Positions 15,456 through 63,741 of a DNA stretch of 64,000 nt are shown in pieces. The translations under genes and the position numbers were made by a program. The notes under the pieces are model-generated. The model did not search any database, had not been told where the DNA came from, and saw only the letters and a list, made by a program, of their open reading frames with translations. The stretch comes from Carcharhinus longimanus (taxonomy: Eukaryota): assembly GCA_030264375.1 (NCBI GenBank), contig JASCQW010000001.1, forward strand, positions 118,627,304-118,691,303, read 5' to 3'. Within the stretch, counting starts at the first letter, position 1, and the number at the start of each line of letters is the position of its first letter.

Positions 15456-15460
15456 ACTTC

Positions 15461-26065: not shown

Positions 26066-26200
26066 GGCACTTAGTGCGGAATTTTACCACCCTGCCCGCC
26101 ATGAGAATTGTAGTGGGCAGGACACGGACCATGCAAAGGTCCATTGAGCTTGGGCGGTGCTTTCCCGACTTTGGGCGAGCGCAGCCATTAAACCTTGCCC
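26066..26200. mobile_element. Short MITE-like element, inverted homolog of 47084-47210
   Basis: accatgcaaaggtcca here versus tggacctttgcatagt at ~47141. The ends resemble imperfect TIRs. Confidence 0.5.
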
Positions 26201-29200
26201 TAAGTCCCAATATGAGAAAATCGGGCCCAGGAAGCTGTGAAATTACTCAGGCATAAGATTGAATGGACAGTTTGATAGTACAACAGCACATAAATAAATG
26301 GAATTTGTGCATGTATCAGAAGAATATGTGCTTCTAGTTAATATTACTGAGGGCTTGCATGCAGACAATAATTGGAAGGAGAAAAACTGTAGACACTGAA
26401 GGAGGAGCAGTCTGAAGAAATATGACATAATTTAGGATAGAGAGGAGTGGAAAAATGAGAGGGCAGCATCATGAATGCTGACTGTGAAAAGGTNNNNNNN
26501 NNNNNNNNNNNNNNNNNNNNNNNNNNNNNNNNNNNNNNNNNNNNNNNNNNNNNNNNNNNNNNNNNNNNNNNNNNNNNNNNNNNNNNNNNNNNNTGGAGCA
26601 GGAAGGTATCATCAATAGATCAATGAAAGGAAAATGACACAGCCTTGTGTGGAGTTACTTAAGGCCTCATTGATGATTATTGTCTTGGCTTAGTGGACAA
26701 TCAGATAGGAAGAATTCAACAGACAGTGATGAGGAAAATGAGAAACTGGAAGGATAACAATACTGCAGTTAAAAAATTCATGGAACAAGGAAAAGTTAGA
26801 AACAAGACAATAGCTTAAAAAAGATGGGAAAAGTCAATGCTGGGCTTTTTTAATGAGAGAGTAATGACAGTGGAGCTGAAAGGAATGGGGATGATACCAG
26901 ATGATAGGAAACAGTTGGTGATGTGGAAGAGAATATCAAGGAGGAGAACATGAAGAGAAATTCTAAAGCATAGAGGCTGGTCAGGATGAGTTGAAAGGAA
27001 GGTTGAAAGGTTTGTGGGAAGGAGAAGAAACAGAGCTAGCAGAACCTATGGTCTTAATGTTTGCGATGAAGAAATCTCAGGCTGGATTTCTCAGGAATTT
27101 CCTTGGAGGATCAGGATATGATTCCTGCCAGTCATCCCAACCCTGCAGTGAACCAAATCCAAACTGCCTGGTTGTGTTTAATTTAAGTGGCAATGCTCTC
27201 AATGGGAAGTCCACTGGAAGGACAGACGTCATCATTCAAGCCCTCAGGTTGGATGTGTCATTTTCTTTTAGGTCGCTGGCTAGGTCAGATTCTAAAATAA
27301 TGCACTAGAGACTATCAGCACACTTCTGTCAATCACAGAAGTTGAGAACAGTGCCAAATGGGGACAACTTGTCTCAACAAGACTCCCTAAGAGCATTGCC
27401 ACTTAAATTATTCATAAAGGGTGGAAAGGGACAGCTGATAGCCTGAAAATAAAAGAAAGGTATTTGTCAGAATCAGAATATGATTATTGCACTAATCCTG
27501 AGCTCAATGGTTAGCTGTGCAAAAAGTGGCGTGGTTTGGATTAGTCGAAAGAGAGTGGGAGGAGGACACATGGAATATGAATGAATACAAACAGCCACCT
27601 GTTCGGCAGAGTGGCCTGTTTCTGTGTTGTAAATTTTAGTAAGAATTTGATGCAGACTGCAGAATTGGTGCTAAGGTTTGAGAGCCTGATCTTCAGCCTA
27701 TGCTCCCTTTGAGTGTGGCACTTCACTGGGAACGTGATCGAATGCAACTTCAGTTATTTAGAAACAGTTGCTAAGATGATGTGCTCTGAGATATTTTATA
27801 CTTCAGAGATTTTAGTAATTGCAGTTTTTTTTACAATGTCAGTGAGTTCTATGCAAGTTTACTAGACTCACACTTGATTGACTATCTTTCACATACATTT
27901 TGATTGACAGTCTTTAACATACAGCTGGCCAAATGTGTCAAATAACAGATTCTTTGAAAGCTTTCTTTAAAAAAAATGCACGACTGATCCACCTTGATCA
28001 TGCAGTACAAACTGCAAAAACTAATTTGGTGCTGGATCAATAACATTATTTTTTTTTTAATTATGGTGTACAATTTTGGCAGCAGATGAAGGATTAAGAT
28101 GTACCTCATATTAATAACTGAAAGTAGCAAAATACAACATGTTGTTAATACCACATTTTGAATCCCTTACAGCAAACCCATCTAACCTAATTCCAACTGG
28201 CATCCAGCCAAATCACTAGGAGTTTGCACTCAATATTAACAGTTGCCCTTGAAAACGAGTTCCACAACCAAATTCTGACCAGCATGTGAAAAGATTTGAT
28301 AGGAGCCAAAGGGTGGAGTGCATAAAATGCACTATTTATTTTGGCTGGTTTTAAAATATATATTAATCATCAAGTGCTCACAACAGGTACCAATCACAAC
28401 TCACATCATGAGGCAAAATGATCACTGTTAAATGTGGTTTCACATTTTATAATTCAATTTGATATTTGATAAATATAGTCAGATTTGGACAATGTCTGAC
28501 TATATATATCAAATATCAGCATCAAGTACTCAGATCATACATAAGTTAGATACAGAGGAAAGCTAATTACACTATCCTAGTGATGAAAGGTACTTCTTCA
28601 GCTTACATTAATTGAGGAGGCAAAACTTCTATTTAACACAGTGTACATTCAACACTAGAAGGGTATTGCTCCAGTTTGTCATTTTAAGCTTCCCTTACAA
28701 GATAAACTTGCCATGTGGGTTCTTTCAATCGCTTGTTGCAACTTCAGCACTTTATTATGTTCAAAATACCTCTTCTTTCAAAGTGTAAATAAGCTGTTTA
28801 GTGTTCTATAGATTAAATATAATTACAGGAAGAACAAAGACTTATGGTATTTCCATTTGTTATAAACTGTCAACGATTTTACAGCACTTCATAGCTGACT
28901 TGTCAAATGCTGTCCTCTGCAATTTTACACAATAGAAAAGCCAAATAAATATATTTGCGTTCTTGATACAGTAGCATTTATTTTCATTTTTAACTGGTGG
29001 CAGGAATGGGGGCACATCAGAAAGTTTGATGACGTGGAGACTGCCAATTTTAACTCCAGAGCTGCAATAAGATAAATATTCCTGGAGCCCAAACCAGACG
29101 CTCAACAAGATTCATTATCTGATTAATGGGTGGAGTTGTAACATGGTGCAAAAAACTGTAGCTAAAGCCAGATGGGAGGGAAATTTCTGTGTGATCTGGA

Positions 29201-29655
29201 TCAAGAAAGGCTGGGATTGAGGAGGCTCAAAAGCTCCTTGTACTCTTCCTGAGATCATTAGAGATATTTCTGGGGGACTTACCTTAGGTTCTTCTGGCCC
29301 CTTGGCATCTCCTGCAATGCTTCTACTGCCAGGCACAGATGGTGTGGGGTTCTGGTGTCAATGACACCATCACGCTTTGACTTACGAACAGCGACCCCCC
29401 ACCCGCCCCCAGCCTTTGCAGTGAAGCTGGTCGATTGCATGATTCACCATCTTAAAAGGTACGATCTCTGGAAATAGCTTCAGTTTTAACTCCTTCCCCA
29501 CTTACCTTCTCAGTGAGACACCTAAAATTCCTGTCATTATCTTGTTACACATATTTTTGGTATGTATGGTTAGCCCAACCATAGCCCCTGTAACTGGTAG
29601 TAATATTGAAAGAAGCGTAGTTGGTAGAATTATTTTTTAATAATCATAAACTTAC

Positions 29656-29783
29656 TATCTTCACTCTGTGGCCTGGAGTTGCTGAGATCTCCCACGTACA
29701 TTCTTTGCGGCTAGGGTATTTATCAGGCCAATTGGGACTCGTGATAATTCCAGTGGCACTGTAGATCTTGTGTTCACATTCAG
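29656..29783 (-). CDS. TLL1: Tolloid-like 1 exon, CUB4 N-terminal part ([43 protein letters not shown])
   Basis: Read by hand. Acceptor ttttctgtcag|CT, donor ATA|gtaagt, 128 bp, phase 1 to 0. Confidence 0.95.
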
Positions 29784-30069
29784 CTGACAGAAAACAAGAG
29801 CAATTAGTTCATGAGCATAGTGACATTATAACTAAGGTCACATTATATAATTAAGCAGGAAGTATTTATTCACAAAAGCATTGTAAAAGGATAAAATATA
29901 AACACTGAAATAAGTAATGAATTATCAATATCTGCAGAATGTACACTGATACCCTGAGAACAAAGACTTTTTGAGAAGCACAAGACTGATCCGAGCATTG
30001 CATTTAATTCGTTTATTTGAACAGCTGTATTTTTATCTCTTCTACGCTCCAGCAGTCTGTATAGCAAAT

Positions 30070-31140
30070 GAACCTATGAATTAGGAGCAGGTCATTTGGT
30101 CCCACAAGTCTGTACCCCCATTTACTGAGACCATGGTTGATCTGACTGTAACCTCAAGTCCACATTCCTGCCTATCCCTGATAAACTTTTACCCTCTTCT
30201 TATCAAGAATCTATTTACCTCTATCTTAAAAATATTCAATGATCACCCCACTCCATCAGCTTGTTAGTACTGTTTTCCTAGCGATTGTAATTTCCTCTCT
30301 CCCATCTCCTGATTTACAGCTATCATTGGAATGTTTGTGTATCCTCTACACTAAAGACAGAAGCAAAATACTGATTCATTTCTACACCATTTCCATATTA
30401 TCTATTAATAATTCCCCATTGTCACTTTCCAGAGGACCAACAGTCGCTTTAGTTACTCTTTTCCTTTCTTAAATTATGGTAGAAACTCTTGCAATCCATT
30501 TTTACATTTCTAGCTAGCTTCTTCTCATTATCCAAATTCTTCCTCTGAACTAACCTTTTAGCCATTCTCTGCCATTCTTTATTTTCAGACTTGCCATACA
30601 CCTTGCCACATTTAAATGCTTTTTTGTTTGAATGTCTTAATTTTTCTTTACAATATACTTATCCTGAGTATTCTGAAATATTCCCTGAAATGTCTGCCAT
30701 GCTTCTCTATCATTTTACCCTCTAGCCTAGTATCTCCGTTCACTTCAGCTAGCTCAGCTTTCGTGTCTGCATAGTTGTTCTTATTAAGTTTAAAATACTA
30801 GTCTCTGACCCACTCTTCTCCTTTTAAACTGGAGTTCAAAATCAATTATTGTGGTTGCTGTTACCTCGGCTTTCACTCTAAGGTCATTAATTAATCCTGT
30901 TACATTACACAATACCAAGCCAAACATAACCTACTCTCTGGTTGGTTCGAGAATGTGCTGCTCGAAAGAAAAAAGCTCTCAAAAGCATTCTATGAATATT
31001 TCATCTAGGTTATTGCTGCCAATCTGATTTTTCCAGTTTATATATAGATTAAAATCACCCATGATTATTGCAGTTCCTTTATCACAAGCATTCTGTATTA
31101 CTTCCAGTATACTTTGTAATACATTGTGGTTACTGGTGGT
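30070..31140 (-). mobile_element. Decayed CR1 LINE fragments
   Basis: CR1-type tail at 30070-30240, followed by degenerate ORF2 sequence. Confidence 0.5.
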
Positions 31141-31265
31141 GACTTCTTTCCCCTACTATCTACGAAAGGGTCTCTGCTGCTTTGGCCTCTATTCACTGCA
31201 TGAGCAATACTAATTCACAGCTGCTGGCCACAGGAACAAAATACCCCAGTACAAAGACAAATTCT

Positions 31266-31473
31266 GTTCTGATGAAAGATCATTGACCTGAAACATTAAC
31301 CCTCGCTGGGATTTTTCTGTCCAGTCCAATTCCCACCAAAAGTCAATGAACTTTTGGCTGCCTCTCCAAATTTTCCGTCCCATCATGGCAGGACTGGAGA
31401 ATCCCAGCCTCTGCTTCTTTCCACAGATGCTGCCTGACTTGCTAAGTATTTCCAGGAGTTTCTGCTTTTATTT
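31266..31473 (+). mobile_element. Penelope-derived short repeat with a hammerhead core, split by a MITE (31305-31409)
   Basis: CTGATGAaagatcattgacctGAAAcattaac, then MITE with TIRs gctgggatt...aatcccagc, then tctgcttctttccacagatgctgcctgacttgc. Confidence 0.65.
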
Positions 31474-31545
31474 ATGAAAAATTTTCAAGATGTGATAATA
31501 GGGCTAAGTTTACAAAATTACATGCCTGACATTCCATCCCTCAGT

Positions 31546-33785
31546 TTGATTTGATTTAATTTGATTTTTTTATCACATGTATTAGTGTACAGTGAAAAGG
31601 ATTGTTTCTTGCACATTACACAGGCGAAGTATATTGTTCATAGAGAAGGAAAGGAGAGAGTGCAGAATGTAGTGTTACAGTCATACTAGGGTGTAGAGAA
31701 AGATCAAATTAATGTGAGGTAGGTCCATTCAAAAGTCTGATAACAGCAGGGAAGAAGCTATTCTTGAAACAATTGGTACATGCCCTCAGACTTATGTATC
31801 TTTTTCACGATGGAAGAAGGTGGGAGAGAGAGTATGTCCAGGGTGCATGGGGTCTTTAGTTACACTGGCTGCTTTTGCAAGGCAGCGGAAAGCGTAGGAA
31901 GTGTCAATGGGTGGGAGGTTGGTTTGAGTGATGGACTGGGCTTCAATCACGACTCTTTGTAATTTCTTGTGGTCTTGGACAGAGTAGGAACCAAACCAAG
32001 CTGTGATACAAGAAATAATGCTTTCTGTAGCGGCTCTGTAAAAGTTGGTGAGAGTTATGGTGGATATGCCAAATTTCCTTACTCCCTGAGAAAGTAGAAG
32101 CATTGGTGGACTTTCTTAACTACAGTCAGAATTCAGGGAGCAGGATAGGTTGTTAGTGATCTGGACACCTAAAACCCGAAGCTCTCGACCATTTCTACTT
32201 CACTCTCATTGATGTAGACATGTGCATGTTCTCCTTTATGCTTCCTGAAGTTCAATGACTATCTTCTTCATTTTGTTGACATTGAGAGATTATTGTCATC
32301 ACATCAGTTCACCAGGTTCTCTATCTCATTCCTATACTCTGCCTTGTCATTGTTCGAGATCCAATCCATTATGGTGATGTCGTCAGCAGATTTGAAAATT
32401 GAATTGGAGGTGAATTTGGCCACATACGTATTTGAGGAGTATAGTAAGCAGCTGAGGACTCAGCCTTGTGGGACACTAGAGTTGAGGATGATCATGGAGG
32501 AAGTATTGTTGCCTATCCCTACTGATTGTGATCTGTGGGTTAAGAAGTTCAGGGTCCATTCACAGAGGAGGAGCCAAAGCGCAGGTCACGGAGTTTGGAT
32601 TTGAGTTTTGTAGGAATAATGGCGTTGAAGGCTGAGCTGTAGTCGATAAATAGGAGTCTGACATAGGTGTCTTTGTTATCTANNNNNNNNNNNNNNNNNN
32701 NNNNNNNNNNNNNNNNNNNNNNNNNNNNNNNNNNNNNNNNNNNNNNNNNNNNNNNNNNNNNNNNNNNNNNNNNNNNNNNNNNNNNNNNNNNNNNATTTCA
32801 AAGCACTTCACAATAATGGATGTCAGAGCCATTTGACAACAGTAATTAAGGCATGCTGCCTGGCTTTTCTTTGGTATTGGGATGATAGTCATCTTCTTGA
32901 AGCAGATAGGGACCTCAGATTGGTGTAAAGAGAGGTTGAAGATGTCTGTGAATACCCCCACCAGCTGGATCTGAGTGCTCATGGTATCCAGGTACTCCAT
33001 CCGGGCCAATCACTTTCCATGGGTTGACCTTTGAGAAGGCTGCTCCGATATCCACAATTGTTACCTCCAATACAGGTTCATCTGAGGCTCCGGAGTGGAA
33101 GGTGTGCTTTAGTTGACCTCTTGCTCAAAACGAGCACAGAATACATTGAACTCATCAGAGAGGAGTGTGTTGGAGCTGGCGATTTTACATGCCTTCATCA
33201 TGTAGCCTGTTGTGTTTTGCAGACCTTGCCATAGTCAGCAGGGGTCCATGTGGCTAGCCTTGATTCTAGCTTAGTCCAGTACTGTCTTTTGGCCTCTTTG
33301 ATGGATCTCCTTAGATCATATCTCGTTTTCTTGTATAGGTCAGGGTGACCTGAATTGAACGCCTCAGAACTAGACTTCAGCAAGTAGTGGATATCCCTGT
33401 TCATCCAAGGTTTCCCATTGGAAACAAGTGGATTTGCTTCTTTGCCACACAGTCTTCTACACTCTTACTAATGAAGTCAGTTACTGTAGTGGTGTACTCA
33501 TTCAGGCTGGTTGCAGAGATTTAAATACCATTCTACTGACTTTAAGCAGTTCTGTACGAGATCATCTGATTCCTCAGACCAACATTGCATGATTTTCTTT
33601 GACGGATTTTCCCATTTCAGTTTTTGCTTGTAAGCCAGGAGCAGGAGCACAGACTTGTGGTCTGATTTGCCAAAGTGTGAGCGTGCGATGGAGCGGCAGG
33701 CATGCATGATATTTATGTAGCAGTAGTTGAGTATGTTTGGGCTTCTGCTGAAACAGGAGAGGTGTTGGTGGTATCTTCGTGCCCA
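31546..33785 (-). mobile_element. Rex1/Babar-clade LINE, 5'-truncated and decayed (end of endonuclease, RT, C-terminal domain)
   Basis: HFGKSDHKSVLL; QLVGVFTDIFNLSL...FKKMTIIPIPKK...ALTSIIVKCFE; RKFGISTITLTNFYR..ESIISCITAWFG. (ATCAA)n-like tail at 31546-31566. Confidence 0.85.
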
Positions 33786-36034
33786 TTCAACAGGCAGCAT
33801 CTTCCTATTCTGACCTGGCAACTGTTAGATGAATGTGCACAAACTCATTTACTCATCTCTTGACAGAAGTGTGCACAAGCATTTTGAATTTGTGCTTGTG
33901 CAAGTTCAAGCACTTGTACAGGGGCTGAATTTTAAGGGCCTTTGAGGACAGTTCAGAGGAAGAAAGACTATAAACATAGAGTGGGGGTAACCTCCTCTCT
34001 TCCCAAATGCCTCCCTCTCACTTCCCACTCTGCCACTTCAGTGAGCAATTAAGAGCGTCTTTCCACCTCTGCTGGCAGTGGCAGGGTAGGGCAGCTTCTT
34101 TTGTGGGCACACTTTGGCCCATAAACAAGATATCCAAGCTTAATGGCCACCCCACACTCCCAAAACAATCAGCACTAACTGTCCTCAATGACCCTCTCGC
34201 CCCCTACTTGCTGGCACCTGCTTGACTAGCTCCAAAACACCCAGGTGCCAGGTTGTGAGGATGCATGTAGATCACTGCATTTTTTTCCTACAGTTTCAAG
34301 CTCAGGACTGCCCACTACATTGCTGGGCTGGCAGTTAATCAAGGAGGCCACAGTCCTTAATACAGTAGTGGGTTTGGTGACAGAAAGTTAATTAACTAAA
34401 GAAACTTAAGACTTGTAAAATGTGACTCTTGGTATTGCAGCCCAGCAAAGCATTAGTTAGTCATGCGACACCTATGTAATAAACACTAGCAAGCTTAATT
34501 TTGCTCTCCTGGTCTTTTAATCTACCTTCTACCATCAAATTTCCTAGTAGCATATAGCATATAGATAAAGTTGTCATTTTTCATTAATGGTTTCACCAAT
34601 TCTTAATAAATTAATGTTCCAGTAAATTCACAAACACATTTCATTTTTACGTAGACAGAATTTTAGCTCAATGGGTCTGTGCTGGTGTATATGTTCTACA
34701 TGGGACTCCTCCCAACTTAGTTTTATCTAACTCCTTCAGCGTAGTAACACCTTAAAATATCTGTTATTTCTCCAGAAAAAAAATGAATCGTGAGATTGGA
34801 AGAAAAATTGTTACTGCAATGAGTAGAAAATAAGGCTTATTTTCCAATTTTGCACTCCTGGCAGGGATCCTAACCACTGGGCACATCTATTGGAAATTCA
34901 ACTGTGCATTGCACATTATTTAACAGCTGTTATGATCCTTCCTGTTACAGATGTGATGAAGCTGAGAACTAACCATTACCCATCGCATATCAAAGGACCT
35001 TGTGAGGGCTCCCTCAGTCCTGTTTCAAATTACATTATTGTATTTTCAAATACTATGATTAATTGTTGGAAATGCTTGGGCAGAATTTCAGTATTATAAT
35101 GGCACTGTTTGATTTTTTATTAAATGAAAGCTTAGCATGAGTTCTTGTGGATGAAGTGATGCACTTGACTGGCCACTATAGTACCCACTGAACCCTCAGA
35201 AAACCGTTTCATGAATACGTGCATTTAAATTGCTGATTTGTTTCTCATTATTGCCTGTAAACTTTAAAACACTTTTGTTCAACAATTTGTACATTAAAAA
35301 ATAGATTTGTTGCTGACTCCATTTTGGAAATAACTTAGGTCAGGAAACTCGTGCATACAAAAGTGAAGCTTCTGTCTAGGGTGTAGTGGATTCCTCACTA
35401 TCTACAAGTTCCACAAAGATTGTTAATAAGAGAAATTTTCTAATAAACTATATAAATGCTATTAACCCCAGTGACCAGTAGTACATTGCAACTGCTGGAG
35501 ATGTTCTTCCAAGTCATTGATAAGGAAACACAAACTGTTTTACCAAACAAGCAGTCAGCTGCATCCCAAATTTCTGTTTTGTAAACTGGAAAATTGAGTC
35601 CATAAATATAAGGCATTTGTGGAATGTTTTGTCAACATCTTTTACAATTGTAGAATTGACAGAACTCTGCACTTGTCAACATGTAATATTTATCATCATG
35701 ATGTTGACATAATGAAAAACGTTCTTGGCATTGCTGTCATTAAAGTGATAGACAGCACTTTAATCATATAGACTCCTTGGAAAAGACCTTGCCTTTGACT
35801 GCATTCAGGTTTCTGACATCACACCAACATCTAACATTATATACAATCACATGAACAACACAGTTTTAGTTCTTATTCAATAGATTTTGATACAGTTAGT
35901 CGGTTTGTGTGCATCATTTTATGATATTCATTATTCCATTATGGAACCATATGTCAAGAAGCTGCAAATTGGTATCCCAGGTTATTTTATTTGTTCTCTT
36001 TCGGTTTAAGCATTAAACAATAGATGTGTTATTA

Positions 36035-36295
36035 TAGAATCCTAGAATTCTACAGTGCAGAAGGAGGCCATCAAGTCTGCACCGATCACAATTCCACACA
36101 GGCCCTATTCCCATAACCCCACATATTTACCCTACTAATCCCGTGGCACTAGGGTCAAATTTTAGCATGGCCAATCAACCTAACCTGCACGTTTTTGGAC
36201 CATGGGATGAAACACATGCAGACACGGGGAGAAAGTGCAAACTCCACACAAACAGTCACCTGAGGCCTGGCATCCCTGGCGCTGAATGCTAACCA
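36035..36295 (-). mobile_element. tRNA-derived SINE just downstream of the EGF2 exon
   Basis: Same core and tail as 3627-3934. Confidence 0.8.
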
Positions 36296-36331
36296 TTTAG
36301 TTCTTGTCTAAGGAATCACAACATCACATAC

Positions 36332-36457
36332 CTTCTTTGCAGTCATGTTTGTTTTCATGTAGTACAAATCCATTTCGACACTGACACACGTAACTGCCTA
36401 CTGTATTGATGCATTCATGTTGACAGCCGCCGTTGTCTTTGGAACACTCATCCTTAT
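36332..36457 (-). CDS. TLL1: Tolloid-like 1 exon, calcium-binding EGF2 ([42 protein letters not shown])
   Basis: Read by hand (not in the ORF track). Acceptor cttcgcag|AT, donor GAAG|gtatgt, 126 bp, phase 1 to 1. Six-Cys cbEGF pattern. Confidence 0.95.
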
Positions 36458-37783
36458 CTGCGAAGAGGTCGAGGAGAGGTCATACAAAATATATTCATGA
36501 GCCGCTAGCCCAAAACATTTTAGGTAAGAATGAAAATACGCCTGTGTGTTCGTCCAGAAGAAGGTAAACTAAAGCACAGGTCGGACTGCCCATTAGTACA
36601 CCTTTTGCTTTAGCTATACCCATTCATTATTAAGCTTGCACTTTCACCTACAATTACCAATCCATCAAGCAGGCCGGAAAAGAAGCTTTTGGATTTGGCA
36701 ATGGCTCCAAGCTTGCTCCTTAGCAAGGAGAACTCTGCTCGTTTAAATCATGTGTAATTTTTAAAGTGCTTGGCAGTGCATTACCTTTAAATGAATCTGG
36801 ACATTTCTTAAACACACAATAAAAGCCAGCAGTAGTTAAGAACTAGAAGTAAAAAATTCTGCTCACTTCAAACAGACCTACTGATCAAGGTGACAGTTTA
36901 GCAAATGATTTTACTTAATTAAACTAATCCCCTAATAAAGGTACAACTGTGTTAGAGGTGAAGCAAATATTAGCACAGAAGAGATAACACCTTGTATCTG
37001 CGTAAAACAGCCACAAAACTCACTACAGGGAGGACAAGCAAAAAATATTATTAGCAGCCATTCCAGTGAGTGGCAGTCAACTCTTGTCATTCTACACGAG
37101 CTTTCATGTCAGGTAAGGGATGGTTCGTCCATTTAATCAAAACTGGCAGACTGTTTCTGACACTCTCAGTTCCATGATGAACTATGCTTTATCACTTCAA
37201 TATGTACAGAAATGAAAGGCACAGGGGACTATTAAATACTAAAACAGGTGGGAGCATTTGAGCAAAATAAAAATTCCCAGTATCTTCAACTTGCTCTGCA
37301 ATCAATCATAAAAATACAAGGAAGGATGAAAAGAATGCCTTGAGCCTGTGATCATATGCATCAACAAATTTTCTTCAGATATTAATAAGAGTAATAAATG
37401 GTTTGCAGGGACTGAAGAAACTAAGGTAAAATGACTGGTTTTCAAAAAGCTTATAAAATGAAAGCAGTTTGGTACATAGAAGATGTATTTCTGTGTAATA
37501 AATCATATTTACCCAGCAACTTTGCTTGCTATCTTTACAAGTTTTGATTGCAAACAACTTAATACATTGTAATTAGTAGAAATGAAATAAGATCTACATA
37601 CATTCTATGTAGGTGAAATATGTAGCTTAAATAAATGAGTTACATGGCAGAAAAATAGTTTTGCTGCTGTTGAACAGAAATCAGTCTGCCAGCTTTGAAT
37701 GGATGCATCAGTCCCCACGTAATGAAAGATCCAGCCCGAAAACTGTGTTAGATGCCAACCAAGCAGACGACATGTGGTCGTAC

Positions 37784-37906
37784 CTCTGAGACTCTCAGAG
37801 GCCACCAGTCTGTCAATAATACGTACTCGGCTGGAAGGGGAAACCTGCATCAAGTTCTTGCAAGATTCAAAAACAAAAATTTTCTCTTTGCATGGTGCTT
37901 CCTTGT
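37784..37906 (-). CDS. Candidate alternative TLL1 exon (123 nt, phase 1-1: DKEAPCKEKIFVFESCKNLMQVSPSSRVRIIDRLVASESLR). The frame stays open to a TAG at 37605 if the donor is skipped.
   Basis: Strong acceptor ttttctttcacag|AC, donor AGAG|gtacga, in frame with both flanking exons. No expression evidence. Confidence 0.3.
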
Positions 37907-38599
37907 CTGTGAAAGAAAATGTACCAAGATGGCACCAGAGATGAATGCATACTGATTGCTCTCAAGTTCATTACCTCATTGAAACTAGGGTTCAAAAATT
38001 CTCTTTTGTTTTAAAGTGAAGGCTTTTGTGACTATACAAGCAACATAAGAAAGATTGACTTATATCGTAGTATTAAGTAACATTTGTTAGATTATTTCAA
38101 GATAAAGAATGGGATCATTTCCTTTAGTTTTACGATGCAACACACGTTAAAATTACTTGATCAAATAGAGTAATACATCAATGTATATATCTAAATTTTG
38201 CAATATTTTATTCAACTGATATATGAGTATAGCCAAGAAGTTATTGTGGAAATGTCAACAGACAAACATGCAACAACATGAATGACATTCTTCTGCTTGT
38301 TCTTTTAGAGCAGGTTTTAACCCATTTATTTTAAGTGGCTAATTACCTTCTGAAGCAACAGACAGAAAATGCAAGGATGTTAAATGTTTGTCTGCTAAAG
38401 GATCACAATAAAAGACAGTTTCACTGATAGCACATTATTTAGTCCCTTCAGCCTGTTCTACCATTCAATGAAATCATGTTTGATTTGTAATCAAACTGCA
38501 TGACCTGTATTCGCTCCCTGTGGTGGTTATGAAGAGTAAGGATGCATTACAGCTCCTTCAAATCGACTCCTGGAAAAGTGGTTTTCATTTGGTTGTGGG

Positions 38600-39513
38600 A
38601 GGGAGGGGGGTGGAGGGTAGCGGGGGAGGCTGAGTATGGAGGCAGGCTGGGCAAAACGTACTTTAGCCCAGCTGTGAAAAATAAATTTTAAAAAAGCCCT
38701 TCACCACAGACCCCCTCACTACCATCACACATTCCCCATCATGCAATCTCAGATACACCCCCCCTTGCCCCTCCTCCCATGGCCCTTTATTATCCCGATG
38801 CCACTGATGCCCCCTTCCACAATCCTTTGCCTTTATATCCCCCATGCCAACTCACCAAGTATTCATCATAGGCAGACTTCAGGGCTTATGCTGCGATTAA
38901 ATAAAGTTCATAAGTGTCTATATAGGAATTCATTATTTAAAAGAACACTCCAGCTGAGTACATTTCACTTCCTTTAGTTCTCTAATATTATAAGTATTTG
39001 TATTCATGGTCTCACTTCAAAGATTTATAAGCACTTGGAGCCATCAATCAAACTGTGAACAATAGAAACTCTACTGTGATGATAGGTTGTGAAATTTGTC
39101 ATGTAGTGCTAACTCTGTAATGGTAACCTCATGCTTACATCAGCAAATACTGTATTTTCCAACACTGCTGACAAGTATTTTTTAATATTTGAAGGACAAG
39201 AGATTTAAATGTCCTGACAGGTTGATTGCCTCCTTTGACAATGCTAATGAGCATGACAGTTCTGATGAATTTATCCACATTTTACACACATTTGTGCTTA
39301 CTTTTAATATTCTCAAAGGGCACCTGACCTCTCCCAGAGATGCATAGGAACCACGTCCAAAAGGGTACCACCAACTCTTCAAAGGACTCTGGTAAGTTTA
39401 AACCTTCTACTACCAGGTTTAATGTGCACAGGTTGTATTTCCCACTCCCTACTTGTGAAAATCAATAAACTGAAGGCAGCTGCACTTTAGCATGTTCAGC
39501 TGCCTCCATAAAT
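38600..39513 (+). mobile_element. ~0.9 kb non-coding element, same family as 22931-23990
   Basis: 39420-39513 is the reverse-complement match of 22931-23025, and internal blocks are shared. Confidence 0.7.
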
Positions 39514-39809
39514 CATGGATGTCCAAAGTTCAACCGGTACATTTACTAGATGGTGAGCATATCGGCTTTTTTACTGCAGCATGCTACTTTATCATTTATA
39601 GAAAAAAAGATTGATTTGAAAAGTCATCTACTTTATACTAGTAAAAATAGTAATGGTAAAATTACAACATTGTCTTTACTGCAATAAAGACAATCTGTAA
39701 CAACTTCTAAACTTGACAATCACTCTTGGTGATGTTAGTGTGATAGTGCTAATTGCACTTGTATCAAATTCCTCTGCTTGCTGTTGTTTGTCCAGAAGAA
39801 GCTATTTGA

Positions 39810-40090
39810 TCATAGATAAACATAGAAAACATAGAAAATAGATGCAGGACAAGGCCATTCGGCCCTTTGAGCTGCACCACCATTCAGATGTGATCATGAC
39901 TGATCATGTACTTTCAGTATCCCACTACCGCTTTCTCTCCATATCCCTTGATCCATTCAGCTGGCAGGGCCGTGTCCAGCTGCCTCCTGCAATATCTGAT
40001 GAACTGGCCCCAACAGTTTTCCATGGTAGAGAGTTCCACAGATTCACAGCTCTCCAAGTGAAGAAGTTCTTCCTCAGCTTAGTCCTGAAC
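39810..40090 (-). mobile_element. CR1 LINE 3' fragment
   Basis: (catagaaaa)n tail and an RKNFFT.RAVNLWNSLP-type region. Confidence 0.75.
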
Positions 40091-40204
40091 CTTAGTCAGG
40101 CCTTAGTAAGAAAGGGAATGCTAGCCAATTTTTTCTCCCCAAGTCCAGAGACAACAAACTCAATTGAAGTGGTCATTCCAACAGGTAACTTAATGAATAT
40201 AGAG

Positions 40205-41158
40205 ACATGTCAAAGATTTTCATCTTGTACTCATCAGAACATGTCATAAGATTATTAACATATAGGGAAAACAACCACTTATACTGTATGAGAAGACATA
40301 GTTATTTGGTTGACAAGTAGATTCTGGTTGGTAGAGGTGTTGGCATGGAGAATGCACCAGTTGATAGTGACTAACAATTAACTGCCAAACATTGCTTGAA
40401 TTTTAAACCAGGCAGCTTCACCATGATTGGTTCATAGAATCCTTACAGTATAGGAGGTCATTTGGCCCATTGAGTCTGCACTAAAAACAATCCAACCCAG
40501 ACCCTATCTCTGTAACCCCACATATTTACCCACTAATCCCCCTCACACTAAGGGGCAATTTAGCATGGACAATCCACCTAACCCGTATATCTTTGGACTG
40601 TGGCAGGAAACTGGAGCCCAAGCAAACATAAAGAGAATGTGCAAACTCCACATAGTGAAGCCGGAATTGAACTTGGGTCCCTGGCACTGTGAGCCAACAG
40701 TGCTAACATTGTGCCATCATTCCTGCAGAATGAGTCAGTGAATGGCAGTCACTTATTTTGTTTAGCTAAAACTAACTCGCTGTGTGTACATGTTCTGTCT
40801 ACAAAATACCGTGCCCTACATATTAATATTTGTAGCTTCTATTACATATAAATGAGTCACACAGAAAGCCTGAATGACAATCTTAAATTGATTGTCAGTG
40901 TAATTCTTAGCACACTGAAATAGGGTGTGGCAAAGACATCCTGTGGGATAATGGCTGCTCTGCTCAGATCATTTCATGCTGTGTATTTGAAAACTCATTA
41001 ATGGGCTTAAGGCCATCATTTTCAGCTAAAAGTACCCAGTCTATCTCAGGTTACCCTATATTTTCTTCCCATACAGTATAAATTGTTGTTTTCCCATTAT
41101 ATTGATATTCTTGTGAAATGTCCCGGTGAGTGCATGATGAAAAGTTTTGACACAAGTC
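40205..41158 (-). mobile_element. Penelope-like element 3' part (GIY-YIG C-terminus plus hammerhead), with an inverted terminal copy at 41055-41158 and a nested SINE
   Basis: Minus strand 40795-40915 reads CAKNYTDNQFKIVIQAFCVTHLYVIEAT...CRQ. CTGATGAgtacaagatGAAA at 40218-40237 (minus). Inverted copy on the plus strand. Confidence 0.7.
40433..40718 (-). mobile_element. tRNA-derived SINE nested in the Penelope remnant
   Basis: Same core and tail as 3627-3934. Confidence 0.8.
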
Positions 41159-42129
41159 ATTTTTTAAACAATATTGAATTTCTGTACTATTAAGTGACCA
41201 TTTCAATATAGAACTTGAGATCTTCCTAGTCTGCACAACTGAGCGAGCAGTGCATCTAGTGAGGCCATTGAGAATAAGTTTATTTTCATTATTAGTCTCA
41301 ATTTAGTGCACCTTTCCTTACATTTTTCATCCTATTTGTAATAATTTGAGGACAAAATGAAGTGCCATCATATCACCATTCCTGCCATAATGCAAAGCTG
41401 CTTCTGGTTCAATAGTCTGCACAAGGCTGATCATCTACTTTATCTCTTCATATTTGTTGGTTTGAGAAATGAAAATATCTCCAATAAGGTCCAGTGTAAA
41501 GCTGCCTTTAAAAAGTGTCCAGAGGTTTGTTGGATGCCAGGGCATTGTATTTGTGTTATAAATTCCTTGCTCATGGTTCATAGTTAATATTTTAAAGATA
41601 ATTTCTAGTTCTGGGACGATCAAAATTTAACTGCAGAGCATGTGATAAATGCAAGCAAAACAGCTTAAAGACTGTTGCATGTGCCTAGCCCAGCTTTCCC
41701 TAAACCTACTTGCCCATCTTCGAGAGCACCTCAACCATTGAGATGTTCTCTTATCACTACTGTAGCCTCAACAATGCCCATTGTTAATAGTAGCTAACAA
41801 TGCTGAGGCTGCAGGGCTGCCAACTATTTATTTGGTCTGGTAGCACTTGGTCACCATTCTAAATCGATTGCCATCAGCAAAATGCTGTCCGACAGTCCCA
41901 CTACTGACTTAAGTGAGCTTATATTCTACTTTTGACTCTGGTGGTGGGACTTCTGCCTCCTGTATTAAATTCAAAACCCGAGAGAAACTCTCTACAGATG
42001 CCACAGACCTGCTGAGTGTTATATGAGGGAATTGATGCAGTGTTATTGGGTGATATTGACAAGAGGCAACACACAGGTGAGAAATAGGATGGGGATCAAG
42101 AACATATCCTTGGATACAAATGGAAGTGG

Positions 42130-42480
42130 GATTTTGGAATTCTCTTCATCCATTCAGTAATGATGCTGTTTGCTTATGATATTTCACTGAACCTTGGTTT
42201 CTGGATGTTGCTCTGATGTTATCAGCCAAGATTTAAGTGGGTAATCCTAATCTCCAAGTACCCTTTCTGACATGTATACTTCCGTACGACATTGTCTCTG
42301 CTCTAGTAGATCCACGGTTAGGATAGGAAGCCATAGAATTCTCGCACACTGCTTGTCAGGAGAATTTTATAAATTATGTCAATGATCTGTAGATTTTCTG
42401 CAACATCTATCATATCAAATGGTATCTAACTATATGATGCTGTTTAATGCCCCATCTTTCTGTTCCTTTTCCCATCCTCA
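42130..42480 (-). pseudogene. Highly decayed Harbinger (HARBI1-like) DDE transposase fragment
   Basis: Minus strand reads VLGD*DYPLKSWLITSEQHPETKVQ (cf. LLGDxGYPLxxWLMTP), with an upstream NRK motif. Confidence 0.55.
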
Positions 42481-44407
42481 TCATTGCTTNNNNNNNNNNT
42501 CCTCAGAACATTACAAAAATGCATTTCTGAGAAGGAAATTCATTATTTATCTACAAGGTTAATTTGATTTTAAATCCTGTTCTAACAACAGTCTTTAATT
42601 TCTAATTACGCAATATTCTAATGCAGGTATGAGTATTATACTCACTACTCATTATTGTAACATAAATCATCCAGGCCTTATAGTCCTAAAGAAAAGATGT
42701 ATTTACTGACTTTAGGCTTTCACCATTCTTTCTCATCTCTTGGACACTGCACAGGTTTCAAATACGCCCTTTTTATAAAATTGGTGCTTTTTAAGCTTGT
42801 GAAATCAGCATAAATAGAAGTAAAATAGTGAGGATTAGTAAACCATATCCTGTGCTATTATCTACAGGCAGCCCGAACAGGATGAGGGCAGGCAGATCGA
42901 CACCGTGTTAGGGTCACTGGAGAAAAATCAATGCGGCCATTTTTTAGGATTGGGGAAATCAGTGGAAGGCCCACCCCATTTAACCTTTCCAGAAAGAAAA
43001 CATTTAGACCATCCAAAATGGGTTTTACAGATGAATTGTCAAACTTGTATCTCTTTTCCGTCTTGTCTTCTTATGTCATTTCTCATCTCTGTTTTATAGT
43101 TGTCTCTACTCGTTGACTGCCTCTTTCTCAAATGCTTTTCTCTCCTCTTCGTTTCTATTTCTCATTTCTCTCCTTCTCAATCCTTGACTTGGTTATTTCT
43201 TTGTCATTATTCTCTTGTTATAGACCTGCACTTACTGGGGATAATGAAGATTTTGGTTACTGATGTGGCGAAGACAGTTCGGGGTGAGTTGGGCTGGACG
43301 GGCAAGATTTTGAATGAGGATGACCAGTGGGACAAAAATGAGATGTCTATATCCTGCCGTTAACTGTTGAACATTACTAACATCAATTAGTAATGTAAAC
43401 AATCAGTGAATTCACACTGTTTCGCTATCAAGACAAAATATGCATATCCAAATTTTAGGAGAGAAGGTAGAGTGCACAAAACATTTTAAAAACTGAAACA
43501 AAGAAAATGCAAGAATAACAAACAAAAGAAAAAGAGGCGAAAACCAAAACAAACTCGAAAACCAAGAACAACCTCAGAGCAAGTCCAAGTCCACCACTCT
43601 AGTTTGGCCGAAAGTGTGGCAAAAAGCTGGTCCAGGGAAGTTATTGATCAAAGAAGATAGGAAATAATAAAAGTATATTCAAGCAGATTCAAGACTTTAA
43701 AAGTATAAAAATGAGTTAGATTCATACTTCAAAGCTTTTTTGCATAGAAACCGCATTATTGGGAAGTGAAGTTCTGAAGAGGTAGTTTATGCATTTGTAT
43801 CTCATGGATGGAAACTCTTTAATGGCTCCAAAACCTTCCTGATTGCTGCGTAAAGTTTGTGGGCACATCTGCTTGTTCATAAATTCTCAAAAGACTCTAG
43901 AAAGACAACTATGCCTTTGTGCAGCACAATTGTAGCAATAACATACTATTGTAACCAGTAACCACATCCAGGTAGATAGAAAGATAAGCAAGAAAATCTG
44001 CTGCAAAGAAATAACCTGACTACTGTAAATTATCATCGACATGCAATACTTCCTTTCACCTCTTCCACTTTCTTTCAGTTTTGTCATGCAATGTCATGCC
44101 TGAGAGGGGCAAAAAATGACTGGCTCCCACATTTCGTCCTATGTTGCTTAAAAAACCTACAAGAAGATGCACCCTAAGTAGACCCTTCTTTTGATGGTCG
44201 TTCCTTCTGCTCACGCTTCACAGTGCGCTTTGGTAGGTCATCTACCACCATTCCATGGAAAGTATATTGCTGCTTCAAAGTGTGAGTTACTACCCTGTTT
44301 TGCTTCATCGATGTTTTATAACTTTTCAACTTAATGTAAGCCTACAGTGGTGAGATCACAAATTAGTACATCATTATTCTAAGTTCATCAACACACAATT
44401 TTAAATG

Positions 44408-44625
44408 AGAACATAAGAACATAAGAAATAGGAGTAGGAGTAGGCCATCTAGCCCTTCGAGCCTGCTCTGCCATTCAATAAGATCATGGCTGATCTGAAG
44501 TTGATCAGTTCCACTATCCCGCTTTCTCCCCATAACCCTTAATTCCCTTGTCTGTCAAAAACCTATCTACCTGTGACTTAAATAGATTTAGCGAGGTAGC
44601 CTCCACCGCTTCAACTGGCAGGGAA
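44408..44625 (-). mobile_element. CR1 LINE 3' end
   Basis: gaacataagaacataagaaataggag tail, as at 11090. Confidence 0.85.
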
Positions 44626-44949
44626 CCGCCAGATGCAAATGGTCACTAAAAGCACGCGATTTTTTTTCATTCAATGTGGCAGCAACAACAAGTAGGTCAA
44701 ATGCTTTGAGTGATCATTTGCAGACACCTCGTTATTCTTGAACTCCAGTCTGCCGGCAAGAAAGTAGTTTCAAAATATAATTTCCCTTCCAATTATCTGC
44801 TGCACCTACATGCTAACTTTAAGCATTCCTTGTACAAACGCATCTATTATATTCTTAATATCAACATTTATATTTTTCAGCTCGTCAAACATGTTCTGGT
44901 CTTTCTATGTTTTTCACGAAGAAGAATATCTTTTTGCTGTCCAATATTG

Positions 44950-46514
44950 CACCTGACCTGCCCCTCCACTCAGAAGAACACTCTGCTTCCCCTCCTACTC
45001 TATCTGCCTTTTTCCTACAGCTTGTATTAGCTAAACTTTGGGTAATACCATCCTAATAATCTGTTATACAGGACAGATTGATGGTCCTCTGTGACACTTC
45101 GCAAACTCCTATGCGCACACTAACCCACAGCCATGATAACAGCAGTCTAAGCCTGCATGGCATCATGTTGACTTTGAAAAGTAGCTCACTGAAATTCCAC
45201 TGCAACACTGAGACACTTGTTGAATTCTGCTTGTGCTGCAACATCAGCCATCAGATGTTGCATGATGATTAGGTCCACAAGTTTGTAAATAAAGCTGACC
45301 ACCGCTTCTGTGCTGGAAAGAATGGGCTTCAATCTCTGCACAGTCCTGTGCCATCTTGGTTCTTCCATGCTCCTTGTCCTAAATGCCAAGCTTTTTGGCA
45401 AACCTCCCAATGCACCAGCATTTTGTTGTGCATACCCATCAATGTTCTTTTATAGATTGTCCCTTCAAAGTCTGTAACAATGTCTCTGCAACAAGACTTG
45501 TGTGCGACCTTACTCTTTGGTGAATTGGCACCGACACTACCTTTGTCTCTTGTCCTGGCTGCAAACCACTCGTGCCCTATGTTTTACCACATGCATGTTC
45601 CACCTCGATGCTATTCTGTAAATTATTTGCAGTGTCAGTGTTTGAGCTGGTGGCTGTGATTATGAAATCAAATGATGGTGCATTTTAATCATCACCATTT
45701 TCTTGTTCCTCTCCTGTCTGGCCAGATAGAAGTTTCTGGTTTCCTGGAAAGAAGAAGGGCCCAAGTGTCAAGTTGTGGTGCAGGCAGGAAAGGTGCATGC
45801 TGATACCATCTGTTGCTTGTAAATCAAAAGAGATTATGGGATAAGAGGGAGGTGGGATGTGAGAAAGAGGATGAGGTATGGTGATATTATCATCTTTGCT
45901 GTTTCAACCCGTCTGCTAGCTACTGCCTCAACAATGACTGTCACAATAAATAGCCAACACCATCTCCTGTATGGAGGTTAGGAAATGCAAGTACATCAGT
46001 GCCTCTCCAGTTAGCTCCTGCTACCTCAAGACAATCCTTCTCTTTCTAGATAGAGGAAAGTGTGTCAATAAATGCCGTGCAACCAGTTTGGATGATGTGA
46101 CTGTTATGGTGTGCAACCTGTAAGATATGGTATTAAGTGTGTAGCAGGGCTCAGTCTGTGAGGATGCAGTGGATCCTATCTATGTTAGAAATGAGTCATG
46201 GTGGTAGGGATTGTTGGTAGCTGCTTAATGCTGGTATGGTGCATTCAGCAATGTTTAAAGCTAGTGATACAATTGGCAGTCGAGGCATTTTATGATGCAT
46301 TAACTGACTGTGACCACTTGTGTGAGGTAATTGAATTTCTTTTAGCACTCTATTTGGGTCCTCAGGGTTTGATTCCTGATATTAATCTCCATGCTATCAA
46401 TTCCTCTGAAGAGCCTCCCGGCTCCCTGCAAATACAGGACGTCAACTCCTCCACCAAGGCCTCCAGTGCAAAGTCCAAATATCTAAGAGCCTGCTCTCCT
46501 CCACATTGTGCCAT
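44950..46514 (-). mobile_element. Decayed Harbinger Myb/SANT accessory ORF
   Basis: From ATG 46514: MAQCGGEQALRYLDFALEALVEE..., then frameshifted RTQIEC..KFNYLTQVV (cf. RAPRFSDxxLExLVEEV...RTxxQCRKKFNDL). The lower boundary is uncertain. Confidence 0.6.
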
Positions 46515-46939
46515 CCTTCAATTTTCCCAGGTTAAACCTGCACAAAGGCTTTAACCATAATGTGCCTCCCTTTTAAGAGGTTCACACTGGTTTTAAGTAG
46601 TACAGGCAGTTTTAAGTGGTGCTGGCTACTCACAGTATTACCGCCCTCCAGCTTAAAATGTACCCAGCCTACCATCATCACTGTTAGTATTAGCTGGAAA
46701 CTGAAAACATTAAATGAGGAAGCAGCATGAATTCAGTATGTTACCTACATCACAGTCAAGAGTATGGGTTAATCATACCTCACATCTAATTTGAAAGGTT
46801 ATCATGTTTAGTCCCAATATTTTTGTAAGTGAATGAGTTAAGGTCCTCAAGTTTAGAATTGCAGGAATTTTTAGACCTCCGAAGTAATATACTCTGCAAA
46901 AATTTCATTAAATTGCTATTATTTTATAGAAAAGATGAG

Positions 46940-47210
46940 GGCCAGAACTTTCCAGTCTTTCTCTCACCACTACCACTATCAGTGAGAAGAAAGAGTTTGA
47001 AGCTCAGCTAAATTTCCATTGACTGCAACAGGGCTGGAACATCCCAGTTGCGAGTGAGATTAGAGAATTCTGGCCAAGATGTTGGGTGGGATTTTCCAGC
47101 CGCACACTCCCCAAGGCCAGAAATTCCCATCCAAGGATAGTGGACCTTTGCATAGTTCATTCCGGCCTGCTACAATTCCCGTGGCAGGCAGAACAGGAAG
47201 ATTCTGCGCA
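46940..47210. mobile_element. Two adjacent short MITE-like elements (46940-47076 and 47084-47210)
   Basis: TIRs ggccagaa...ttctggcc on the first. The second matches 26066-26200. Confidence 0.5.
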
Positions 47211-48054
47211 TTATGTCAGCATTAACCGTATTGAAATTAATTTGTCTACTTCTGTGCAGTACTCTTAAATTTGTTATTGCCTTAGTCTGCTATCAAAAAA
47301 GGATTTGTGAGGAATATCAATTATTCTTTTCAGTTCATTTGATTCATAATGAAAATTTTGACACCAACAGCTACAACTTGGAATAGAGATCCTGTGTACA
47401 ATTAATGTACTTAATTCGATGTTGTACTTAATTCTATGTTGTCCTTATAGCCCCTGCAATGCTCCTCAGTTTGCAAAGTGATACAGCAGAATCAGAATAA
47501 CATAACATATAGCAAAAAGTATACCATTCAGCTCATTAAATCTGGTTTAATATTTTTGGTAACTTTATACCCAGATGTACTGCCTTATATTTTCTAATGG
47601 AAAGCAGTGTCTGCCTTATTCCACCCACTTGCTTACACTTTCTTTTGTGCTTTTGTAATTTTTCCTGACCATTTGCAACTTTAAGTCATTTAGATAGAGT
47701 AAGTAGTATTGACACCCAGCCCTGATCCCTTGGACACCGCTTGTCAATCCAAAAATTATCCTTTAATCCTCACACTCTGCTGTCAACTTACCCCCCAGTT
47801 TCTTGCCCATACAATTTGTATGGGTTTCACTAACATAATTTCAATTAACAGTTTCTTTTATGGAACCTTATCGCCTATCCGTGTGTGTAACATCCATATA
47901 GATTCTTTTCTCATACCTCTCCAATTTTAAAATAAGACCAGTTCACCAGGATGGAAATGCCCATAGATGCTTCAGCTTGAGGCCGAGGTCATTTTACTTC
48001 TGGGTCTCATACCTATTTCTGCCCTGTTTCCTGCCTGAAACTGATGGTTCTGAT

Positions 48055-48440
48055 GTAAGTGTGGGGAGATCTCATTGAGACGTCATTGAGACGTCACCTC
48101 TATCCTATCCATCATCTCATTGAGATGATGGATAGGATAGAGGTGGAGAGACTCTTCCCGCTCAGAAAGGATAGTAGGACTAGGGGGCACAGCCTCAAGA
48201 TAANNNNNNNNNNNNNNNNNNNNNNNNNNNNNNNNNNNNNNNNNNNNNNNNNNNNNNNNNNNNNNNNNNNNNNNNNNNNNNNNNNNNNNNNNNNNNNNNN
48301 NNNCTTCAATGGGCAGAGAATTCCAGAGATTCACCACCCTTTGAGTGAAGAAGTTCCTCCTCAACTCCAATCTAAACTGCACCTCCCTTATCTTGAGGTT
48401 GTGCCCTCTAGTCCTGCTATCCTTTCTAAGCGGGAAAGAT
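48055..48440. mobile_element. Two oppositely oriented CR1 fragments across an N gap
   Basis: FPLRKDSRTRGH(S/N)LKI reads on both strands. Confidence 0.8.
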
Positions 48441-48719
48441 GAGATGTTGAATTCCTCTCCCACTCTTCATTTATTACTTCTTTTTTTTGAGCAAAACAAA
48501 TAATCAAATAAACCAATTAACTCAAGAGCCAGCCTAAAAGACACAATAATAATGTTATATACACAATACTGTACGAGTACCATAAACCACTGTAACCAAT
48601 TTCCAGGTTTTAAATTTTCAGTCAAACTTCCTGACAATTTGCAATGTCAGAACATCTTGATCTCAAATGTGAGAATTCAACAACATTTTTCAGAGATACT
48701 CACTCTCTAGTTAGCCTAC

Positions 48720-48900
48720 CTGAAAAAAAGTGAGCCTTGAATCCTTTCTTGGAAACAGTATTGTCAGATTTGAATTCAATCCTCATATTATTGTATTGGG
48801 ATGTTATAACTTCAGGCACTTCAGTACCACAAAACTTCCCATGAAGTTTCGAATCTGATGAAAGGCCACTGCGGATCTCAACATAATCATATTTGCATAT
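48720..48900 (-). CDS. TLL1: Tolloid-like 1 exon, CUB3 C-terminal half ([60 protein letters not shown])
   Basis: Acceptor ttttaccag|ATA, donor TCAG|gtaggc, 181 bp, phase 0 to 1. [15 protein letters not shown] and EVITSQ are TLL1-type. Confidence 0.95.
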
Positions 48901-55350: not shown

Positions 55351-55359
55351 TAGTCACAT

Positions 55360-63480: not shown

Positions 63481-63741
<261 letters not shown>

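What the first reader, a model, noticed from the sequence alone, without database searches (positions are those of the whole stretch)
37605..37920. Candidate unannotated TLL1 exon at the position where BMP1 makes its short isoform
Seen: in the CUB3-EGF2 intron the minus strand has a strong acceptor (ttttctttcacag|) at 37906. Spliced to the phase-1 CUB3 exon it reads DKEAPCKEKIFVFESCKNLMQVSPSSRVRIIDRLVASESLR... and stays open for 100 residues to a TAG at 37605. A donor AG|gtacga at 37784/37783 would instead give a 123-nt phase 1-1 cassette that joins EGF2 in frame. The exon starts D-K like the 126-nt EGF2 exon, and it lies in apparently repeat-free, locally CpG-retaining sequence. Known: the paralog BMP1 uses an alternative terminal exon in this same intron to make short BMP1 (ending after CUB3) rather than long mTLD. 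Inference: this TLL1 may have an analogous short isoform or an inserted-peptide isoform.
Basis: partly seen in the sequence, partly recalled or inferred. Interest (0 to 1): 0.7.

Follow-up and report, generated by a model that had tools for sequence, protein, structure and literature searches.

The report
Ancient optional exon in TLL1 protease
An intron of the gene for the tissue-patterning enzyme TLL1 holds a 123-base stretch whose 41-amino-acid product is conserved from rays to birds; it is very likely an optional exon that would lengthen a hinge of the enzyme and likely tune its activity, and although databases already predict it in other species, I found no study of it.

Summary
The gene is TLL1 (93-98% identity to catshark TLL1 over six of seven exons). 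Its CUB3-EGF2 intron has an acceptor at 37906, an in-frame donor after 37784 and a frame open to 37605. The cassette reading is strongly supported. The 41-residue peptide sits at the same junction, with matching ends, in database TLL1 isoforms of 34 named species: stingray (33/41 identical), sturgeon, teleosts, amphibians, lizards, turtle, birds, and a 28-residue form in mammals. Six species have isoforms both with and without it. The BMP1-like terminal reading is weak: the 59-residue read-through tail matches nothing, and only one lizard model ends there. The cassette shows no detectable homology to the BMP1 short tail, to EGF2, or to any Pfam or PDB entry, and AlphaFold leaves it unstructured. 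The likely role (inferred) is a disulfide-closed loop plus flexible spacer at the hinge before the domains that drive dimerisation and substrate exclusion. The exon is present in automatic annotations elsewhere, and eight literature searches found no paper on it. Splicing in this species was not tested with reads.

The parts
48720..48900 (-). TLL1 exon encoding the second half of CUB3; ends in phase 1 (upstream partner of the cassette)
37907..37926 (-). Polypyrimidine tract and AG acceptor of the cassette (15 of 20 upstream bases are pyrimidines)
37784..37906 (-). 123-nt phase 1-1 alternative cassette exon, 41 aa, pattern D-x4-C-x9-C followed by a variable basic and hydrophobic spacer
   Evidence: a lizard insert maps to window 37785-37907
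37778..37783 (-). 5' splice donor GTACGA, at the position where all full-length orthologous inserts end
37605..37783 (-). Read-through frame past the donor (59 codons plus TAG); not conserved, candidate terminal extension only
37132..37137 (-). ATTAAA, the only strong poly(A)-signal variant between the read-through stop and the EGF2 exon; use not shown
36332..36457 (-). TLL1 EGF2 exon, 126 nt, phase 1-1 (downstream partner)
6928..63684 (-). 3' part of the TLL1 gene; other exons approximately 63684-63520 (CUB3a), 29784-29656 (CUB4a), 20098-19886 (CUB4b), 9770-9516 (CUB5a), 7074-6928 (last coding exon)
   Evidence: tblastn

Best explanation
This 123-nt stretch of the TLL1 CUB3-EGF2 intron encodes a 41-residue peptide conserved across jawed vertebrates and is very likely an optional (cassette) exon, whose inclusion would lengthen the hinge between the enzyme's BMP1-like core and the EGF2-CUB4-CUB5 tail and would likely loosen or re-aim the tail's dimer-based brake on activity. 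Shown here: the splice signals and frame, the orthology, conservation with matching ends, and database isoforms with and without the insert. Inferred: regulated, probably minor or tissue-restricted inclusion; a disulfide between Cys6 and Cys16 closing a small conserved loop; a flexible second half; and an effect on dimerisation and substrate exclusion. About 0.92 that it is a real cassette exon; about 0.4 for the hinge-tuning mechanism.
For: A search with the 99-aa ORF returned 4 proteins among 54 candidates, all bird tolloid proteins (three named TLL1), matching only the first 45% of the query. Of 229 fetched tolloid proteins with a readable CUB3-EGF2 junction, 48 carry the homologous insert, 169 carry none and 12 carry unrelated read-throughs. 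The 48 come from 34 named species plus one unnamed record, and all are named TLL1 or end in a TLL1-type C-terminus. Identity to the window peptide, out of 41: stingray 33, girdled lizard 33, gannet 33, chicken 32, turtle 31, sturgeon 30, caecilian 29, frog 28, horse 21 (28-aa form), hake 15, perch 13. Non-mammalian length variants are whole-codon deletions (41, 40, 39, 36 aa). Six species have both forms among the fetched proteins: chicken, two lizards and three frogs. Cys6, which my filter did not select for, is invariant in 33 of 33 distinct inserts. The window gene is TLL1, and its BMP1 and TLL2 paralogs lie on other contigs. PMC3878766 shows that TLL1 dimerises through EGF2-CUB4-CUB5 and that forms cut after CUB3 are monomers with about twice the chordinase activity, so the insert lies on the regulatory boundary.
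Against: No reads were laid on the locus, so splicing in this species is untested. The database isoforms are automatic predictions; that such models usually rest on RNA-seq junctions is recalled, not checked. Only 1 of 16 fetched cartilaginous-fish TLL1-type proteins has the insert. AlphaFold gives the insert pLDDT below 50 in the full protein (residues 723-763) and 54 on its own, so neither the loop nor the disulfide is supported by a model. Invariance of D1, F13, S15 and C16 is partly built in by my filter. Unnamed genomic ORFs show exceptions: one lacks Cys6 and one has S15L. Mammals have lost the 3' third, and teleosts have diverged to 13-15 of 41 identities. Nothing here tests an effect on activity.
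Confidence: 0.6

Rival explanations
1. The exon is a real cassette, but the insert works as a binding or clipping module rather than a spacer. The conserved Cys-x9-Cys loop would bind a partner (matrix, enhancer, inhibitor or substrate), or the basic second half would be cut to release a BMP1-like short enzyme after translation.
For: Conservation is concentrated in residues 1-22 (63-81% identity to stingray in tetrapods and sturgeon, against 36-63% for residues 23-41 outside mammals). Mammals kept this part and dropped the rest. Teleost versions are rich in Lys and Arg. A pure spacer would not need this sequence conservation (inference).
Against: No family, structure or look-alike was found (Pfam, PDB, Atlas). 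No multibasic cleavage motif is shared across clades. No partner is known.
Confidence: 0.25
2. The exon is also, or mainly, used as a terminal exon: the donor is skipped, the frame runs to TAG at 37605, and the transcript is polyadenylated in the intron, giving a short monomeric TLL1 that ends after CUB3 like BMP1.
For: The frame stays open 59 codons past the donor (about 0.03 by the intron's stop frequency, uncorrected for local GC). Zootoca vivipara TLL1 isoform X3 (773 aa, P0043) ends 9 residues past the donor. An ATTAAA lies about 470 nt past the stop. Engineered TLL1 cut after CUB3 is folded and more active (PMC3878766).
Against: The 59-aa tail matches none of 348 fetched proteins and added nothing. 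Read-through lengths in 16 teleost-type genomic ORFs run from about 9 to 148 residues and change frame after about 12 codons. There is no AATAAA before EGF2. The search aimed at 272-867-aa forms returned only the one lizard model of this kind among 117 hits.
Confidence: 0.12
3. The stretch is a conserved non-coding element that is spliced in only rarely, and the protein product does not matter.
For: Most annotated TLL1 proteins lack it. The mammalian exon was remodelled by a frame-shifting change. No peptide evidence was seen.
Against: Conservation is at the protein level and ends at both splice sites. Indels keep the frame in all non-mammalian versions, and the mammalian remodelling also restored the frame.
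Confidence: 0.05

Closest known systems
TLL1 'isoform X1/X4'-type automatic models with a CUB3-EGF2 insert (e.g. XP_059820856.1 Hypanus sabinus, XP_032300134.1 Coturnix japonica, XP_053110817.1 Hemicordylus capensis, XP_023492108.1 Equus caballus)
   Same: Same gene, same junction, same ends, 28-33 of 41 identical residues outside teleosts and mammals. This is the orthologous exon.
   Different: These are database predictions with no functional description found. The mammalian form is 28 aa. Most fetched shark models lack the exon.
BMP1 versus mTLD alternative splicing (BMP1 short terminal exon after CUB3)
   Same: An alternative exon in the equivalent phase-1 CUB3-EGF2 intron of a paralog, at the boundary that sets dimerisation and activity (PMC3878766, PMC4763255).
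   Different: The BMP1 exon is terminal and removes EGF2-CUB4-CUB5; this one is internal and keeps them. No homology was detected: hhalign 0.1% and profile scores at or below 0 bits for the BMP1 tails. BMP1 tails came back only from amniotes.
Human TLL1 isoform 2 (short variant)
   Same: Alternative exon use in TLL1 that changes the C-terminal domains.
   Different: It ends with an extra exon between exons 9 and 10 (PMC6996343), far upstream; the matching database forms are about 390-400 aa (P0009, P0011, P0206). It is a different event.

Membership tests
TLL1 ortholog (BMP1/tolloid-like proteinases) | CUB3-EGF2-CUB4-CUB5 exons closer to TLL1 than to BMP1 or TLL2, with separate loci for the paralogs | tested here: met
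   88-98% to catshark TLL1 over 7 exons, against 57-89% to BMP1 and 58-87% to TLL2 proteins. C166 is BMP1-like and C168 is TLL2-like. Tested by identity only; no tree was built.
Conserved frame-preserving cassette exon | Canonical AG and GT, length a multiple of 3, matching phase, no stop | tested here: met
Conserved frame-preserving cassette exon | Orthologous coding sequence with the same boundaries in distant species | tested here: met
Conserved frame-preserving cassette exon | Both inclusion and skipping forms exist | tested here: met
   In database models of six other species; not shown for this species
Conserved frame-preserving cassette exon | Junction reads in this species | not tested
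   No reads were laid on the locus
Conserved frame-preserving cassette exon | dN/dS below 1 | not testable with these tools
   Orthologous DNA from other vertebrates was not available; only proteins
BMP1-type alternative terminal exon | Homology to the BMP1 short C-terminal tail | tested here: not met
BMP1-type alternative terminal exon | Conserved tail and stop beyond the internal donor | tested here: not met
   one lizard model has a 9-aa tail (P0043)
BMP1-type alternative terminal exon | Intronic polyadenylation site | tested here: inconclusive
   No AATAAA; one ATTAAA at 37137; no 3'-end data
Duplicated EGF exon | Six-cysteine EGF pattern or profile similarity to EGF2 | tested here: not met
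   Two cysteines only; hhalign 0.35% against 62 EGF2 peptides; no Pfam match

The most novel reading that the evidence does not exclude
TLL1 has carried, since before sharks and bony fish split, its own switch exon at the site where BMP1 makes its short form. It would be a composite exon that is skipped (standard braked dimer), included (hinge-extended enzyme with a new disulfide loop) or left unspliced at its donor (short monomer like BMP1). The two paralogs would have recruited the same intron independently to tune chordin and procollagen cleavage, and mammals would have rebuilt the exon into an 84-nt form that keeps only the loop.
Probability: 0.15. Interest if true: 0.75.

Novelty: new variant of a known kind. 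Interest (0 to 1): 0.5.

Why it matters
Tolloid proteinases set BMP gradients and process collagens. The papers read treat TLL1 as a fixed 5-CUB, 2-EGF enzyme with one known short variant. A peptide module kept for over 400 million years (divergence time recalled) at the exact hinge that controls dimerisation points to an unstudied layer of regulation, and it can be tested with existing assays. The value is limited by three things: automatic pipelines already list the exon, its inclusion level is unknown, and its presence in human and mouse was not established.

Tried and rejected
1. Sequencing runs: no RNA holder listed; nine rows came back, four only guessed to be RNA, and none was laid, so they are no evidence either way.
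2. A profile hit in the BMP1 intron (E 0.004) was two 6-7-bit pieces inside a tandem satellite; rejected. That intron has gaps of 412 and 1203 N, so absence of a paralogous exon is not proven.
3. Homology to BMP1 short tails and to EGF2: not detected. The BMP1-tail profile found nothing in this genome's BMP1 intron.
4. The idea that mammals use the in-frame GT at exon base 84 was dropped. Two unnamed mammal-type ORFs instead fit a frame-shifting indel plus the GT homologous to the one after exon base 80, which is out of frame here.
5. Pfam (0 families for 4 inserts), PDB (2 chance hits, E 0.56 and 2.2) and ESM Atlas (no usable hit) were blank. AlphaFold gave no confident fold, so no fold search was run.
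6. Splicing-factor motifs: YCAY 5-6 per 200 nt against 3.5 background, no TGCATG; not informative.
7. Literature searches found no paper on this exon. The library lacks most subscription journals, PMC2722432 was not held, and no supplements were read, so a listing in a splicing atlas could have been missed.
8. Earlier findings of this scan: none.
9. One search used the wrong frame, and the junction print was one base off; both were corrected.

Full report
Observation. On the minus strand, the acceptor, the 123-nt phase 1-1 interval (37906-37784), the donor GTACGA and the 100-residue open frame to the TAG at 37607-37605 are as described. The CUB3 exon ends at 48720 and EGF2 spans 36457-36332; joined in silico with the cassette the frame is open. 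Of 27 acceptor-like sites in the 12,262-nt intron, this is the only one with a frame of 100 codons or more, and the only one with an in-frame G|GTRNG donor. The region gave one match in the 2.68-Gb genome as DNA and one strong match as protein. The CpG remark is weak: 6 of 42 windows reach the same ratio.

Which gene. Seven exons in the window match catshark TLL1 at 88-98% (93-98% for six of them), BMP1 proteins at 57-89% and TLL2 proteins at 58-87%. Two other contigs hold the BMP1-like (C166) and TLL2-like (C168) paralogs. The gene is TLL1 of a cartilaginous fish, most likely a shark (inferred from identity; no tree was built).

The cassette is conserved. The 99-aa ORF found 4 proteins among 54 candidates, all bird tolloid proteins (three named TLL1), each covering only the first 45% of the query. 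In them the peptide sits between CUB3 and EGF2. A search centred on the quail insert (457 hits, 120 listed) and cluster look-ups extended the range. Of 229 fetched proteins with a readable junction, 48 have the homologous insert, 169 none and 12 unrelated read-throughs. These are fetched proteins enriched for the insert, not a census. The 48 come from 34 named species and one unnamed record: 1 ray, 1 sturgeon, 8 teleosts, 5 amphibians, 4 lizards, 1 turtle, 10 birds and 4 mammals. Identity to the window peptide is 28-33 of 41 for ray, sturgeon and non-mammalian tetrapods, 13-15 for teleosts and 20-21 for the 28-aa mammalian form. Chicken, Paroedura, Hemicordylus, Engystomops, Eleutherodactylus and Leptodactylus each have models with and without it. 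Only 1 of 16 fetched cartilaginous-fish TLL1-type proteins includes it, which suggests a minor or tissue-restricted form (inference). A lizard insert searched against this genome lands on window 37785-37907 (E 1.6e-10).

Anatomy of the peptide. In 33 distinct inserts D1, C6, F13, S15 and C16 are invariant. My filter required D1 and F-x-S-C, so only C6 is an unselected result. Residues 1-22 are more conserved than 23-41, and both are less conserved than the flanking domains (89-98%). Two cysteines in a secreted protein suggest an internal disulfide (inference). AlphaFold folds CUB3 and EGF2 but gives the insert pLDDT under 50 in the full stingray protein (95 sequences) and 54 on its own. Pfam, PDB and the ESM Atlas gave nothing. 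A profile search of 1.84 billion representatives returned 21 hits. By inspection, 19 are unnamed ORFs that read through this same exon and its flanks and 2 are unrelated repeat proteins, so the module was seen only in TLL1-type contexts.

Mammalian remodelling. Horse, dugong and a wild cat have a 28-aa version. Two unnamed mammal-type ORFs (P0340, P0341) fit one DNA in two frames over 9 of 9 residues (0.1% of 2000 shuffles reached 8 or more). One frame gives the mammalian end followed by a probable donor read-through; the other gives the ancestral-like second half. The likely history is a frame-shifting indel plus use of the GT homologous to the one after exon base 80, which restored the frame and dropped the last third. 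This is inferred from peptides, without the DNA. P0341 lacks Cys6, so some lineages may have let the exon decay. Human and mouse status was not established.

Terminal reading. The 59-codon extension is mildly unusual (about 0.03) but matches none of 348 fetched proteins. There is no AATAAA before EGF2 and one ATTAAA at 37137. Read-through tails of 16 teleost-type ORFs share about 12 codons, then differ in frame and run about 9 to 148 residues, as expected of intron sequence. One model, Zootoca TLL1 X3 (773 aa), ends 9 residues past the donor, and it was the only such form among 117 hits of a search aimed at short tolloids. A minor terminal use stays possible.

Relation to BMP1. BMP1 short tails from mammals, turtles, tuatara and squamates score at or below 0 bits against the insert profile, and 0.1% by hhalign. 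The only profile hit in this genome's BMP1 intron was a satellite repeat, but that intron is gapped. The parallel is positional.

Mechanism. PMC3878766 (read: abstract, introduction, methods, results, discussion, first figure legend) reports that TLL1 is a calcium-dependent dimer through EGF2-CUB4-CUB5, and that forms cut after CUB3 are monomers with about twice the chordinase activity. The cassette lies exactly at that boundary. I therefore favour a loop-plus-spacer that loosens or re-aims the brake (about 0.4), over a binding or clipping module (0.25), a mainly terminal exon (0.12) or an incidental product (0.05). No step of the mechanism was tested.

What is known. Passages were read in PMC4763255, PMC6996343 (human isoform 2 ends after exon 9, a different event), PMC9848320 and PMC7490524; none of those passages mentions this exon. 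Eight searches were seen as listings and showed no paper on it; subscription journals and supplements were not covered. The exon is in automatic annotations, so it is not new to databases.

Verdict. A real, ancient, very likely alternative TLL1 exon that appears not to have been studied. It is a new variant of a known kind. Interest 0.5. Splicing in this species is untested.

Noticed in passing
G000:C168, about 655170-656850 (L010:278-1950): The TLL2-like locus shows no EGF2 or first CUB4 exon between the CUB3b and CUB4b exons. A 100-N gap lies there, so an assembly gap is more likely than exon loss.
   Followed up: partly
P0325-P0339, P0343 (unnamed ORFs), just past the cassette donor: Teleost-type sequences share about 12 codons downstream of the donor before diverging in frame; probably a conserved intronic splicing element rather than a coding tail.
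   Followed up: partly
P0074, P0081 (Rhincodon typus): Named bone morphogenetic protein 1 but end with the same C-terminus as catshark TLL1; possibly misnamed TLL1.
   Followed up: no
P0211 (Kogia), P0244 (Myodes), P0228 (Polypterus TLL2): Database models that join CUB3 directly to CUB4, skipping EGF2; either another splice choice at this hinge or annotation error.
   Followed up: no
L008, BMP1 CUB3-EGF2 intron (G000:C166, about 17351550-17352300): A purine-rich tandem satellite that gave a false profile hit. No amniote-type BMP1 short tail was found in the ungapped part of this intron.
   Followed up: partly
window 15412-15670 (+) and 32307-33824 (-): Broken reverse-transcriptase-like frames, probably LINE fragments (family assignment recalled); several SINE-like repeats recur through the window.
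   Followed up: no
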